Below the pieces are notes generated by a model, which made no database searches, had not been told where the DNA came from, and saw only the letters and a program-made list of their open reading frames with translations. A DNA stretch of 64,000 nucleotides from NCBI GenBank assembly GCA_951406725.2, contig OX597817.1, positions 33,170,001 to 33,234,000 on the forward strand, in the 5' to 3' direction. The DNA is from Octopus vulgaris (Eukaryota). Shown here piece after piece: positions 2,524 to 56,303 of the stretch (position 1 is its first letter; every line of letters begins with the position of its first letter). Made by a program: the position numbers and the translations under genes.

Positions 2524-2629
2524 TTAAACTAGCCTTCCACACTTATATGTTTATTAAAATAGATTTCGGCATTTACACATGTACTAAACCATACTTTAAA
2601 ACATTCTTTAATCAGTTTCAATGAAATTA

Positions 2630-2875
2630 GAAATATGTTCTGTTGTGTCTGGAGAGAGTCATCTTCTTTTTGTGCCTTATAATGTAACACACTCACCGGT
2701 AAAATTTCCACTTATTTCTTATTTTTATTTTCCTAAAATTTTCATTGCATCTTGTAACCTTTTCAATAGTCTTATAAGGCACAAAAAGATGACTCTCCCC
2801 AGACACAACAGAATATGCTTCAACACATGAACTCATATAAAGAATCTTGCAAACTAAATCCAGAAACGAAATATA
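2630..2875. mobile_element. Penelope-like fragment with internal inverted duplication and HHR-like motif
   Basis: Inverted repeat 2637-2682 / 2772-2815; homologous to 7900-8073; ORF start MTLPRHNRICFNT at 2789 (+). Confidence 0.65.
2733..2769 (-). ncRNA. Minimal HHR-like motif with U3-A8 core (UUGAAAA)
   Basis: Minus strand reads CUA UUGAAAA G GUUAC-AAGAU-GCAAU GAAA A-UU U / UAG. Stem I CUA/UAG, stem II partly decayed, palindromic stem III AAAUUU. Confidence 0.5.
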
Positions 2876-4013
2876 GAAATATGTTATTAAGGGAAAATAA
2901 GAATTTAAACAATAAACACATATTTTCAAATACTGATTCACTCTAATTTTTTACATACTTGTCTTGGTGTGATCAAGGCCATCATAACAACATCACAGGT
3001 CTCTAGGCTAAGTAACATGCAGAACACCCTATATACACAAATACACCCTTCTTAGATTAACACTGGGCCCTCTTGACCTGTGCAACTGACTAGTTTATCT
3101 ATACCTTAAGACATTAATTGATGTGATAGAGATGCAGCACGGATTTTTGTCAGTGAACAGGTCGCAGATTTTAGCGACAAAAATATTTTGACAAATTAAA
3201 CTTAAATGTTGAAGTGAATCGAACGGCTTTTGTGTGTTTCTTAAATGGCTTACAAACACCTTCCACGCTGCAATTGATGTGATAGTTTTTTTAAAAAAAA
3301 GTTTCAAGTTTTTAAATGTGAATACTTATAATACCTTGTATAACTGAAGGCACTTCTTGCTGCTAAACACTCACCTGCTGTACTTAATGTCAACCTGGTA
3401 TCAACTAGACACAAGCAGAGTAAACGTGTTTTTCCTTGAAGAACATGACAATTGACTATAAGAGATTTGAAGCAGTGAGCCTTTGATCAGTAGACGTTAA
3501 ATCCTATAAACGACAGTGGGAAACAAATATAATATTTTACTCACAATCGCTTCTTTAAAGATCTACACAAGACTTTATATTATATTTATATTTTATGCCG
3601 TCCTCTATATTCTTTGTGTTACTTCTGAAATAACTCAGACAACAAAGGGAATCCAATAATGACTGAATAAACCAGCAGTTGACTCAATCACCAGAACGTT
3701 TCCACACCCATGATTGTTTAAGTCTGTCTCACTATTCATGCTTTTAGTTATTAAAAACTGTTTGTCACTTCACGTAAATGGTGTCAGAGAATTAAGTTTT
3801 AAAGAATACTCTTTATCTCCATAAACAAATGTACAGTTCTGTGTATTTACTTGGTGGTTTAATCATTATTAGCTTGATGGCCACAACTGGATTATACTTC
3901 TACTGAAGATTCCAAATAAGTGGCTTGTTTGAACCTGTTCTCCATAATTGCTGAAGATAAAAAAATATTAGGCACAAACTAAAATTATAATTATTATTAT
4001 TATTTTCAACATA

Positions 4014-7597: not shown

Positions 7598-7899
7598 TTG
7601 TTCATACTTTAGCTTTTTTAATATTAAAAGGATGAAAATAATAATTTCACCCACTTAAATATCTTGCATCACTTAACTCGGATTCTTCTAATATAGAAAC
7701 ATTCAAATTCCAACTTATGTTTCTTTCTGTTATGAATCTTCTTCATTTCTATATAACTTGAATATTCCATTTCACATATAATATTTTCCATCTGTCATGA
7801 TATCATACTCAAAATGAATCTCTCACGTATATATGTTGCACTTCAAGAAAATCTAATTCTTCTTCAGCCTTTAATGGTTTGATTTTATGTAACTTTTAC

Positions 7900-8119
7900 A
7901 AAATATTTCGTTTTTGGATTTGGTTTGCAAGATTCTTTATATGAGTTCGTGTGTTGAAGCATATTCTGTTGTGTCTGGGGAGAGTCATTTTCTTTTTGTG
8001 CTTTATAATGTAACACACTCACCGGTAAAATTTCCACTTATTTCTTATTTCTATTTTTATTTTTATTTTCCTATAAGAAATAAGAAATAAGTGGAAATTT
8101 TACCGGTGAGTGTGTTACA
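7900..8119 (-). mobile_element. Penelope-like fragment with 44-bp fold-back at its 5' end
   Basis: Minus ATG at 7988 reads MTLPRHNRICFNTRTHIKNLANQIQKR; perfect inverted repeat 8009-8052 / 8076-8119. Confidence 0.65.
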
Positions 8120-8477
8120 AAATATGTTCCGCTGTTTATTAATGTCTCACCTCTCACTCAAACATACAGCCTTTCTCCCCTTCTAAGTGAATGACCATCA
8201 CCCCATCACAGCATAGTTAGAGTGTTTCCATAACATTTTAACTAACAATTATAAAATGGTAATAAATGATTAATTCATAATTATTCTGTTTCTTAGCTGA
8301 GAAATTTTTCCATTTTCATTATTAGCCAAGACATACCCCTGTTTCTTAGAGATTGCTTTTTGAATTGCTGCTAGTTGAAGGTGTGTTGTACTTAATCTTT
8401 GTAGAAAGGTAATTAGCTCCTAATGGGTGAGAGATGTAGTATTCAGTGTTGTGAAAAGGATGTTGGTAGCTGAGAGA

Positions 8478-22927: not shown

Positions 22928-23474
22928 CACCATCCGAGCGTGGCCGTCCGCCAGCCTCGTCTGGCACCTGTGTCGGTGACACATAAGAAAACACCATCCG
23001 AGCGTGGCTGTCTGCCAGCCTCGTCTGGCACCTGTGTCGGTGGCACATAAAAAACACCATCCGAGCGTGGCCGTCTGCCAGCCTCGTCTGGCACCTGTGT
23101 CGGTGGCACATAAAAACACCATCCGAGCGTGGCCGTCTGCCAGCCTCGTCTGGCACCTGTGTCGGTGGCACATAAAAAACACCATCCGAGCGTGGCCGTC
23201 TGCCAGCCTCGTCTGGCACCTGTGTCGGTGGCACATAAAAAACACCATCCGAGCGTGGCCGTCTGCCAGCCTCGTCTGGCACCTGTGTCGGTGGCACATA
23301 AAATCACCCACTACACTCTCGGAGTGGTTGGCGTTAGGAAGGGCATCCAGCTGTAGAAACACTGCCACATCTGACTGGCCTGGTGCAGCCTTCGGGCTTC
23401 CCAGACCCCAGTTGAACCGTCCAACCCATGCTAGCATGGAAAGCGGACGTTAAACGATGATGATGATGATGATG
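22928..23474 (+). mobile_element. RTE 3' UTR with six tandem 62-64-bp units and (GAT)n tail
   Basis: Unit starts at 22928, 22992, 23055, 23117, 23180 and 23243, followed by the common RTE tail. Confidence 0.85.
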
Positions 23475-23509
23475 ACATATATGTACATACTTACATATAT
23501 ATGTATGTA

Positions 23510-23865
23510 TATGTGCATATATGGGTACAGGACGTCACAAAATGTAAACAACATGAAATACGAAGACAAATTTGGGTATGCAAACCAACAAGAGAAACAA
23601 ATGGAAAACAAGACAAGTAACATAAAGAATGACCCTTCATCAGTTGTCGGCTGTCCATCTACTCCCCATTTCAAGCAATTAATGAAATGGGAAGTAGATG
23701 AACAGTTGACAACTGATGAAGGGTCGCTCTTCATGTTACTTGTCTTGTTTTTCATTTGTTTCTCTTGTTGGTTTGCATACCCAAATTTGTCTTCGTATTT
23801 TATGTTGTTTTTGTATTTCATATTGTTTATACTTTGTGACGTCCTGTACACATATATGCATATAT
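23510..23865. repeat. Long inverted repeat (arms ~23510-23673 and 23683-23865), Penelope-like fragment
   Basis: GTACAGGACGTCACAAA...GACCCTTCATCAGTTGTC mirrored by GACAACTGATGAAGGGTC...TTTGTGACGTCCTGTAC. Confidence 0.85.
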
Positions 23866-24000
23866 ATATATATACATATATATATATGTAAATATGTACA
23901 TATATGTATGTATATGTGCATATATATATATGAATGAACACCATGCATCCATTTCCATGTAAGTTAATCTATCTATCAACATATATATGTATGCATATAT

Positions 24001-24400
24001 CATCATCATCGTTTAACATCCGCTTTCCATGCTAGCATGGGTTGGACGGTTCAACTGGGGTCTGGCAAGCCTGAAGGCTGCACCAGGCCAGTCAGATCTG
24101 GCAGTGTTTCTACAGCTGGATGTCCTTCCTAACGCCAACCACTCCGAGAGTGTAGTGGGTGATTTTATGTGCCACCAACACACGTGCCAGACGAGGCTGG
24201 CAGACGGCCACGCCCGGATGGTGTTTTTTATGTGCCACCGACACAGGTGCCAGACGAGGCTGGCAGACGGCCACGCTCGGATGGTGTTTTTTATGTGCCA
24301 CCGACACAGGTGCCAGACGAGGCTGGCAGACGCCCACGCTCGGATGGTGTTTTCTTATGTGTCACCGACACAGGTGCCAGACGAGGCTGGCGAACGGCCA
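24001..24400 (-). mobile_element. RTE 3' UTR with about four tandem 63-bp units; inverted twin of 22928-23474
   Basis: (CAT)n start; same variant first unit (GTGACACATAAGAAAACACC in sense). Confidence 0.85.
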
Positions 24401-52044: not shown

Positions 52045-52335
52045 TGCATACATACATACATACATACATACATACATACATACATACATACATACATACA
52101 TTCATACACATATACATACATACATACATACGTACGTACATATATTCGTACATACGTACATACATACATACATACATACATACATACATACATACATACG
52201 TACATACATTCATATATACATACATACGTATGTACGTACATACATACATACATACATACATACGTACATACATACATACATACATACATACATACATACA
52301 TACATACATTCATACATACATACATACATACATAT
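52045..52335. repeat. (CATA)n microsatellite
   Basis: Direct reading. Confidence 0.95.
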
Positions 52336-54105
52336 GTTTATGAATTGTTTTGCTAGATTCTTGATGGGAAATTGTGTGTTGGAACAGATTTTGTTATGTT
52401 TCAGGATGGTCATTTTCTTTCCTTGCCAAACGAACACACACAATGCATTGATTGACCCAGGGCCTTATTGCTTAAGGTGTTGTGCAATGAGACAGAATCT
52501 GAGGCCACATGGTTACTAAACTAACTTCTTAACTACACAGCCAGGCCTGCAATTATATTTGTGATTTTCATCTAAAATTTTACAACACATCATCTGTATT
52601 CTGGTTTAATTTATAAAGTCCAGGCAGTATGAAGTTGCAGAGAGATAATAGTAGTTCAGAATAAATGATATTTTTCAATAAGGTTATGGCTGTGTGGTTA
52701 AGAAGATTGCTTTGTAACCACGTGGTTTCAAGTTCGGCCCCTCTGTGCAACACCTTGGGCAAGTATCTTTTCTCTATAGCTCCAGGCCAACTAATGCCTT
52801 GTGAGTGAATTTGCTAAAGGGAAACTGTGTAGAAGCCTATCATATGTATACATGTGTGTGTGTGTCTTTGTGACCGTGTTTGTCCCCACCACCACAACCA
52901 CCACCATAAAATATAAAATAAGTCCTGGGGTGATCTATTCAACTAAAACATTTTAAGACAGTGCTAGAGAATGGTCATAAGACAGTTCTCTAGAATGGTC
53001 ACAATCCAATGACTAAAATAATAAAAGAAAGAAAAGAAGGAGTTATTGCACCTGAGTGGTTTTTGCTACCTTCTTCACATAGACAAGAAATCCAAAATGC
53101 ATCTAGATTGTTTGGTATCTATTTGGAGAAATTAAACGAACGAAGGCAAATATAAGAGAATGCATTTTAAAAATCATCATCATCATTAGCAGCAGCATTT
53201 AATTTCCATTTTCCATGCTGGAATGGGTTTGATGGCTTGATAGGAACTGGCAAGGCCAGGGGCCACACCAAGTTTCATAGTCTGTTTTGGCTTAGTTTCT
53301 ACAGCTTGATGCCCTTCCTAATGCCCACCACCTTACAGAGTGTGCTGGGTACTTTTAACATGGCACCATCACTAGTGCTTTTTACATGGTACCACCACCC
53401 AGGTAGATATAAGAGGTTAAGATGAAATTTTATTGGTGGGGAAATGGCAGAACCCCAGTATTAGATTTACTTTCATGGAATTTATGTCTCTGTCCTATTT
53501 TGCTGCAAGGTTGACTAAAACATATTTATTTATTCACCAACAAATTTACAGTGTCCAAATGCTTGCAAAAGAGTAAATACTGCTAAGGCCACCCAAGGGT
53601 CAAGTGGTAGTGTAAAACCAGGAGATGGTCAAAGTTGGTTCTTTACAATCATTTTCATATGATCATGACCTGAGAATTAACCCAAATCAATCCTATATGA
53701 GATATTGCTGCTGTCACACCCCCACAAGTATGAGAGACAGTATAAAAATGCCCTGAATGATTAACAAATATGCACTCCCTGACTTGACAACTCACAGGTG
53801 TCCCATTTTGTCTATTTCTTCTACCACCGTCACAATGCCACCCACTTCTCTGAACTATCAAGTTTCAAACTACAGCCTACTCTCCTATTATTATCCAGGT
53901 GAAAGCATGGCCAAAGCATAGGTGTGGCTGCATGGCTAAAAAACCTGCTTTTTAACCCAGCAATATAATCTTGGGTTCTACTAAAGCAAAAGACACTTTT
54001 AGCTCTGGGCCAATCAAAACCTGAGTGGATTTGGTTGTCAGAAACTGAGAGCAGCCTATCTCATGCATGCATGCATACATACATACATACATAAATACAC
54101 ACACA

Positions 54106-55829: not shown

Positions 55830-55889
55830 ATGTATATATATGTGTATGTATATGTGTGTATATATATATGCATATATATATATATATAT

Positions 55890-56303
55890 TTGTTTTGCTA
55901 GATTTTTTATGTGAAATCATGTGTTGAAACAGATATTGTTGTATTTAGGAATGGTCATTTTACCAGTTTAGCCAATAAAAACACATGCACTATATATTTG
56001 GTGTGCTAGTATTCCATTCCAGTTTCCTATTCAGGCTAGGTTTATCTTCTATTATGTGTCTAGCTTCTGTAATTTGTCTGATTGTTGCGTGTGTTCTATG
56101 TGTGGACAAGATTTTAACTTCTATGTTGTTGATTGAGCCCCCGTGTTCCTGCTCGGTGTGTTGGTACAGAACTGAGGAGCTCTTTCCTTCCTTAAGTTCT
56201 CTCCAATGTTCGTTTACCCACTCTCCTATGCTCTGTGCCGTTTCAATCAACAACATAGAAGTTAAAATCTTGTTCACACATAGAACAGATGCAACAATCA
56301 GAC
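55890..56303 (-). mobile_element. Penelope-like element: GIY-YIG endonuclease C-terminus, following ORF restart, and 5' inversion
   Basis: 55990-56244 reads ETAQSIGEWVNEHWRELKEGKSSSVLYQHTEQEHGG...VKILSTH..ATIRQITEARHIIEDKPSLNRKLEW; inverted repeat 56076-56136 / 56243-56303; ATG 55958 reads MTIPKYNNICFNT. Confidence 0.8.

What the first reader, a model, noticed from the sequence alone, without database searches (positions are those of the whole stretch)
8009..8119. A copy starts at the predicted ribozyme cleavage site and folds back there
Seen: the 7900-8073 copy is homologous to 2635-2735. Homology stops at TTTTCCTA (8073), so the minus-strand element begins UAGGAAAA, the first bases after the cut predicted for the 2733-2769 motif (1-nt ambiguity). 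A perfect 44-bp inverted repeat follows. Inference: the reverse-transcribed template was a self-cleaved RNA, which would be genomic evidence that the U3-A8 ribozyme was active in vivo.
Basis: partly seen in the sequence, partly recalled or inferred. Interest (0 to 1): 0.7.

Follow-up and report, generated by a model that had tools for sequence, protein, structure and literature searches.

The report
Penelope retrotransposon stub at ribozyme cut
This hairpin is a short copy of a known kind of jumping gene (Penelope-like) whose main arm starts where its small ribozyme is predicted to cut; most sister copies run straight through that site, but a small excess stop exactly on it, which hints that the ribozyme likely cuts a minority of the copied RNAs.

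Summary
Observation holds: perfect 44-bp inverted repeat (8009-8052/8076-8119), and the main arm begins at the predicted cut (8073). The locus is a young 5'-truncated end of a Penelope-like element (parent ORF: RT, CX4CxxC linker, GIY-YIG) with an 11-bp target duplication. The inverted arm is the family norm (61 of 88 unselected copies), not a ribozyme signature. The U3-A8 hammerhead looks real: a sister family has C3-G8 and a covarying stem II. The main 5' breakpoint is 42-44 nt upstream of the cut (27 of 159 arm ends, against 4 at the cut), and 83 of 104 arms that reach the site continue through the catalytic core, so most templates were uncut. Genome-wide, ends exactly at the cut are in modest excess: 22/2487 against 6/3258 at a sequence-matched control (p 0.0002-0.04 by null), about 1-2% of arms. 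One insertion has four ends at the cut. Odds that this copy came from cleaved RNA: about even. The scan noted like cases in other genomes.

The parts
7896..7906 (.). Target-site duplication, left copy (11 bp, partly microhomologous with the element 3' end)
7905..8073 (-). Main arm: pLTR plus tail of a Penelope-like element, from +1 (predicted cut) to +157; 2 substitutions from the family majority and two extra AAAAAT units
7905..7960 (-). Tail (+102 to +157), between the two usual priming sites of the family; runs on into the ORF N-terminus in longer copies
8053..8075 (.). 23-nt spacer of the hairpin: 12-nt duplication, +9 to +1 of the main arm, and 2 junction bases
8076..8119 (+). Inverted second arm, +10 to +53, identical to the main arm
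8115..8125 (.). Target-site duplication, right copy
2628..2885 (.). Second insertion of the family: 12-bp duplication (2628, 2874), inverted arm +98 to -38 on the minus strand, main arm +56 to +157 on the plus strand
2733..2769 (-). Minimal type I hammerhead motif, U3-A8 core, extra G after A9, palindromic AAUU stem III; predicted cut between 2736 and 2735; stem II of this copy carries mutations
52342..52420 (-). 3' fragment of a sister family whose longer copies carry a C3-G8 hammerhead
55888..55961 (-). Second fragment about 77% like the family 3' part, probably the sister family

Best explanation
The hairpin is a 5'-truncated, head-to-head insertion of the end (pLTR plus tail) of an endonuclease-bearing Penelope-like retroelement, likely made when two cDNAs primed at the two nicked target strands were joined at their inner ends, and its main arm likely stopped at +1 either by chance or because that template had been cut by the element's hammerhead. 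Shown: parent ORF, fixed 3' end at +157, second outer end near +101 (here the rarer +53), 11-12 bp duplication, short microhomology at junctions. Inferred: the usual template is an uncut transcript that starts at A-44 from an internal promoter (a DPE-like AGACG lies at +28 to +32 from it; an extra C follows the cDNA end in 57 of 100, as a copied cap would give). Inferred: a minority of templates, about 1-2% of arms, were cleaved by the dimeric ribozyme, giving the small excess at +1. Cleavage is therefore likely a side path and not a required step of copying.
For: Architecture: 61 of 88 unselected copies have an inverted arm; 111 of 131 inverted arms start at +92 to +106; 146 of 192 main arms end at +156/157; duplication mode 12 bp, 35 of 100. 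Parent: RT with YVDD, CX4CxxC linker, C-terminal GIY-YIG upstream of the same pLTR. Uncut majority: 83 of 104 arms reaching +3 run to -31 or beyond; 27 of 159 ends at -44 to -42, 4 at +1; 534 arms end at -44 genome-wide. Cut minority: 22/2487 against 6/3258 at a matched TAAAATTT control, 4.8-fold, p=0.00015; 20 after removing a duplicate and a mutated copy, p=0.0005; 17 after also removing three stem-I microhomology joins, p=0.003. L248 has four segment ends at +1. Ribozyme reality: 3-8 pair CG in 9, UA in 7 of 16 rows, two stem II pairs covary.
Against: Against the cleavage part: in the 367-end sample +1 is unremarkable (6 ranges; positions -27 to +24 have 1 to 11). A simulated null expects 13-14 of 100 at +1, so 22 is only 1.6-fold, p about 0.02, and the seven-position chi-square is not significant at weak microhomology. 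The six neighbouring positions are also 1.4-fold above control, and +2 is about 3-fold. Single positions in the -7 to -16 control vary from 3 to 17 (by eye). As a share of the window the curated excess has p=0.034. Classes were read by eye. Against the cap part: 7 of the 18 C cases among 30 parsed loci are joins to a partner starting at C-39 and 4 are jumps to another TC site, so microhomology can give the C; by eye only 7 of 25 sampled -44 ends had a G before them, and the one plain copy with a clear duplication had no extra base. No in vitro or RNA-end data.
Confidence: 0.7

Rival explanations
1. The end at +1 is chance. Arm ends scatter at about 0.5-1% per base, more in the A/T-rich stretch from -4 to +22, and joins through TA, CTA and single-A microhomology pile apparent ends on +1. 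The ribozyme never cuts the copied RNA.
For: No peak in the 367-end sample; neighbours also raised; about half of the 22 junctions have 1-3 nt microhomology (by eye); position-to-position noise of 3-17 in a control. Frangieh et al. (PMC11167929) found uncut RNA to be the main substrate in vitro and no RNA-seq reads ending at the cut.
Against: The matched control offers the same TA palindrome and A run yet has 6 of 79 at the analogous base and no TA fold-back; blunt joins at +1 and four +1 ends in L248.
Confidence: 0.3
2. The excess is real but structural: reverse transcriptase pauses or switches template on meeting the folded hammerhead (stem I, or the dimer helix), without any cleavage.
For: The window +3 to -4 is 1.7-fold denser in ends than -7 to -16 after simulation; three junctions join the two strands of stem I.
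Against: A pause before stem I should leave ends at +4/+3, but the peak is at +1; stem I is only 3 bp.
Confidence: 0.12
3. One reading: self-cleavage sets the 5' end of the transposition template and the fold-back follows from it.
For: This copy, L248, L249, L235 and L254 have one or both arms at the cut.
Against: 80% of arms that reach the site contain the whole core; inversions occur at all breakpoints; 534 ends at -44 against 22 at +1, with different filters.
Confidence: 0.04
4. The second arm arose by snap-back copying of the first cDNA on itself and not from a second priming event.
For: The arms of this copy are identical and share a rare G at +11; arms mostly share subfamily variants (15 of 96 discordant at +52, 48 expected if independent) and their inner ends correlate, rho 0.34. 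Arkhipova et al. (PMC3846280) proposed self-priming.
Against: The outer end is fixed near +101 next to the duplication; 15 of 96 discordant is above the roughly 3 expected from later mutation (my estimate), which suggests two RNA molecules in some events.
Confidence: 0.25

Closest known systems
Endonuclease-bearing Penelope-like elements with inverted 5' pLTR, tail and target duplication (PMC8557442 and PMC3846280, passages read; PMC2377424, passages read)
   Same: Single ORF with RT and C-terminal GIY-YIG, CX2-5CxxC linker as in Neptune/Nematis, pLTR holding the first codons, inverted truncated arm, tail on one end only, Asn-rich stretch, short duplication, DPE-like motif
   Different: Tail is about 56 nt, not 30-40; duplication mode 12 bp, not 8-10 as in the rotifer cases; short pLTR-only copies far outnumber ORF copies; clade not placed by a tree
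Minimal hammerheads of metazoan PLEs, including the U3-A8 variant of Schistosoma Cercyon (PMC4209133, results and discussion read)
   Same: Type I, short stem I, extra base after A9, G10.1-C11.1, palindromic 15.2-16.2, U3-A8 covariation, copies facing each other on opposite strands
   Different: That paper reports low in vitro cleavage and no in vivo evidence; here breakpoint counts give a weak in vivo hint; U3-A8 activity was not tested here
PAc Poseidon element of Anolis (PMC11167929, main text read)
   Same: Two internal reverse-transcription starts that bound the tail, both target strands extended, AT-rich targets, uncut RNA as main template
   Different: No RNA reads at the cut were found there; here a 1-2% class of genomic arms ends at the cut
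R2 HDV-like and Perere-3 twister 5' ribozymes (PMC3774820, PMC8501958, abstracts only)
   Same: Genomic 5' junctions used as evidence for in vivo cleavage
   Different: There the cut defines the element's normal 5' end; here it does not

Membership tests
EN+ Penelope-like element | Single ORF with RT and C-terminal GIY-YIG endonuclease linked to the pLTR | tested here: met
   665-aa open frame in L351 with YVDD; GIY-YIG passes the Pfam cut-off in the L316 copy (23.3 against 22.6 bits); RVT_1 only below cut-off (E 0.008)
EN+ Penelope-like element | pLTR with inverted 5'-truncated copy and a tail at one end | tested here: met
   61 of 88 copies inverted; outer ends +101 and +157; pLTR-tail runs into ORF in L358, L359
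EN+ Penelope-like element | Short target-site duplication in AT-rich DNA | tested here: met
   11 bp here, mode 12 bp
EN+ Penelope-like element | RT groups with PLE/telomerase RTs in a tree | not tested
   No reference PLE proteins were fetched; PDB search gave nothing useful
Neptune/Nematis clades | CX2-5CxxC linker before GIY-YIG | tested here: met
   CX4CxxC seen in L311, L316, L351; does not separate Neptune from Nematis
Minimal type I hammerhead of PLEs | Core boxes, extra base after A9, G10.1-C11.1, palindromic stem III | tested here: met
   Family profile, fold of stems I and II
Minimal type I hammerhead of PLEs | Covariation of the 3-8 pair and of stem II | tested here: met
   96.9% of 96 cells paired, 3 of 6 pairs change on both sides; this is one family-to-family contrast, not many independent events
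Minimal type I hammerhead of PLEs | Self-cleavage as a dimer | not testable with these tools
   Cofolding did not return the stem III dimer as lowest energy; needs an assay
Non-LTR retrozyme | Head-to-tail tandem units running from cut to cut | tested here: not met
   Copies are dispersed, head-to-head, and bounded by -44 and +157; one tandem array (L151) repeats an inverted unit not bounded by the cut

The most novel reading that the evidence does not exclude
The genome keeps a countable fossil record of in vivo self-cleavage by a minimal U3-A8 Penelope hammerhead: about 1-2% of copied templates were cut at the predicted bond, the rest were capped full transcripts, so cleavage is a real but minor fate of RNA inside the two-RNA transposition complex, which would also supply the dimer that the ribozyme needs.
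Probability: 0.5. Interest if true: 0.68.

Novelty: new member of a known kind. Interest (0 to 1): 0.42.

Why it matters
What Penelope hammerheads do is stated as open in the papers read (PMC4209133: no in vivo evidence; PMC8557442: function unclear; PMC11167929: no reads at the cut, cleavage not needed in vitro). A family with thousands of young copies lets the question be counted: cleavage is not what defines the template, yet a small class of ends sits on the predicted bond. If it holds, it gives a number (1-2%) and a named RNA to assay. The locus on its own is ordinary.

Tried and rejected
Rfam: no ribozyme match. RNA evidence: no RNA holder listed and no raw reads; contigs of four guessed-RNA runs cover the element but cannot show ends. 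PDB sequence search: nothing. Cofold of two motifs did not give the stem III dimer. Splice-acceptor reading of the -42 end: rejected because plain copies join flank or duplication directly at -44/-42 with no shared upstream exon (by eye). The scripted count of the base before A-44 was faulty (it matched a later motif) and is not used. enrichment let through many full-length arms with indels; these were sorted out by the parser. Sister-family breakpoints: 30 loci were too few and too diverged for a histogram. Lunse et al. (PMC5785218) is not held, so activity data for U3-A8 variants were not seen. No supplements were read; Fig. S2 of PMC11167929 and the alignments of PMC4209133 may bear on the claims. 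Searches listed no paper reporting a genomic breakpoint peak at a PLE hammerhead cut; the library lacks most subscription papers.

Full report
Numbering: +1 is the U of UAGG after the predicted cut; -1 is the base before it. 'Arm' is one continuous piece of element in one orientation; its inner (5') end is where copying or joining stopped.

Observation. The repeat is perfect over 44 bp (8009-8052, 8076-8119) with a 23-nt spacer. The minus-strand arm runs from +1 (8073) to +157 (7905); the plus-strand arm covers +10 to +53. An 11-bp duplication (7896, 8115) frames the whole, so it is one insertion. The 2635 copy is a second insertion of the same build, with a 12-bp duplication, and its inverted arm contains the ribozyme motif at 2733-2769. 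The main arm differs from the family majority at 2 of 153 aligned bases, so it is young, which fits the perfect repeat; none of 109 other arm pairs of 50 columns or more was perfect.

Family. A 23-mer has 4182 exact matches in G000. I parsed 210 loci and the 2635 copy with a jump model, dropped 10 duplicates and cut one tandem array to its first unit. The unselected set is 92 of the first 100 matches, giving 88 loci. Of these 61 have an inverted arm, 25 are plain and 2 other. Over all sets, 146 of 192 main arms end at +156/157, 111 of 131 inverted arms start at +92 to +106 and 6 at +49 to +55 as here; duplications peak at 12 bp. Junctions are mostly gapless (79 of 135) with 0-4 nt microhomology. 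Long copies continue upstream through a CA-rich stretch into an ORF ending in a GIY-YIG domain; L351 has 665 open codons with an RT YVDD motif and a CX4CxxC linker (motif names from PMC8557442 passages, YVDD recalled). In L358 and L359 the tail runs on into the ORF start. This is the layout described for Penelope-like elements (PMC8557442, PMC3846280, passages), and the two outer ends match the two internal priming sites shown for PAc (PMC11167929, main text).

Ribozyme. The motif has every feature listed for minimal PLE hammerheads, and the U3-A8 variant is already described (PMC4209133, results). A sister family found from window 52335-52425 has the motif at the same place with C3-G8 and a different stem II. 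On 16 distinct rows from both families 96.9% of cells pair and 3 of 6 pairs change on both sides; slid controls reach at most 57%. This is one contrast between two families. Activity is untested.

Breakpoint test, sample. Among 367 arm ends from 199 loci (discovery copies excluded) 29 ranges include -44 and 27 include -42, almost none lie at -46 to -50, a shoulder runs to -29, and 6 include +1. In the unselected set 65 of 159 ends lie at -47 to -29, 4 include +1, and 83 of the 104 arms reaching +3 go on to -31 or further. So the usual template held an uncut ribozyme.

Breakpoint test, whole genome. Of 2487 arms with an exact 29-nt anchor ending at +3, 103 break off within +3 to -4 under a two-base filter. 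Reading the 100 listed by eye: +3 9, +2 12, +1 22, -1 8, -2 14, -3 15, -4 20. I parsed 70 of them, all 22 of the +1 class among them: one is a mutated full-length arm, one a duplicate, three join the two strands of stem I. The same eight bases recur at +36 to +29, which gives a matched control: 79 of 3258 arms, by eye 6, 5, 6, 7, 9, 14, 32, not curated. The rate at +1 is 4.8-fold higher (p=0.00015; 0.0005 for 20; 0.003 for 17), the other six positions 1.4-fold (p=0.024), and as a share of the window p=0.006 to 0.04. A simulation with uniform ends expects 13-14 of 100 at +1 (p about 0.02). A second control at -7 to -16 has 96 of 2688, 15 being small indels, and varies from 3 to 17 per position; the cut window is about 1.7-fold denser than simulated. 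Correcting roughly for the filters, the excess is 1-2% of arms (my estimate). L248 has four segment ends at +1 in one insertion; L235, L249 and L254 have both arms at or within a base of it. This copy itself is not in the count because its extra units break the anchor. From the two nulls, 36-70% of ends at +1 are excess, hence about even odds for this copy.

The -44 end. 534 arms end at -44 under a two-base filter. It is a C/A step with AGACG at +28 to +32, the spacing of a downstream promoter element (spacing recalled; a DPE in Penelope is reported in PMC2377424, passage); the sister family has AGATG in the same loop, which may equally reflect ribozyme needs. The next cDNA base is C in 57 of 100 listed, against 12 of 69 at other T-ending sites (by eye), as a copied cap would give, but 11 of 18 parsed cases can be read as microhomology joins.

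Mechanism. Shown: two fixed outer ends, variable inner ends, duplication, parent ORF. Inferred: both nicked target strands prime on element RNA at +157 and about +101; each cDNA runs towards the RNA 5' end, usually -44; the ends are trimmed and joined head to head. Inferred and weaker: in 1-2% of cases the RNA had been cut, and the cDNA ran off at +1. Arms mostly share variants but disagree more than mutation explains, which suggests two RNAs in some events and would supply the dimer.

Verdict. An ordinary insertion of a known kind. Earlier scan notes on other genomes reached like readings; they are not counted as support.

Noticed in passing
L248 (G000:C8:109523077-109524113): One insertion with four segment ends exactly at the predicted cut, two of them blunt joins; the best single case for cleaved templates.
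   Followed up: partly
L151 (G000:C2:10306204-10308797): Tandem array of about 12 units of 218 bp, each a truncated element with its inverted arm; a satellite born from one insertion.
   Followed up: no
L056 and L409: Two copies join -25 directly to +1, dropping stem II and the GAAA box; simple microhomology would leave three more T. Possibly a jump from a cleaved to an uncut RNA, or one propagated variant.
   Followed up: no
family positions -44 to -38 and +75 to +81: The 5' end of the inferred transcript can pair over 7 bp with the first codons of the ORF, enclosing the ribozyme (fold).
   Followed up: no
L358, L359: The ORF N-terminus carries a long (AAC)-rich, Asn-rich stretch like the inserts described in rotifer Penelope elements.
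   Followed up: no
G000:C1:206652473-206734737: Six ORF copies spaced about 15-17 kb apart, probably a segmental tandem duplication.
   Followed up: no
window 22941-24400: Long inverted repeat, 97-98% over 176 and 355 nt, with internal 63-nt tandem units.
   Followed up: no
window 56106-56273: Perfect 31-bp inverted repeat upstream of the 55888-55961 fragment, possibly another inverted insertion.
   Followed up: no
L316: A second, more distant GIY-YIG/RT element lies beside an inverted long copy of this family.
   Followed up: no
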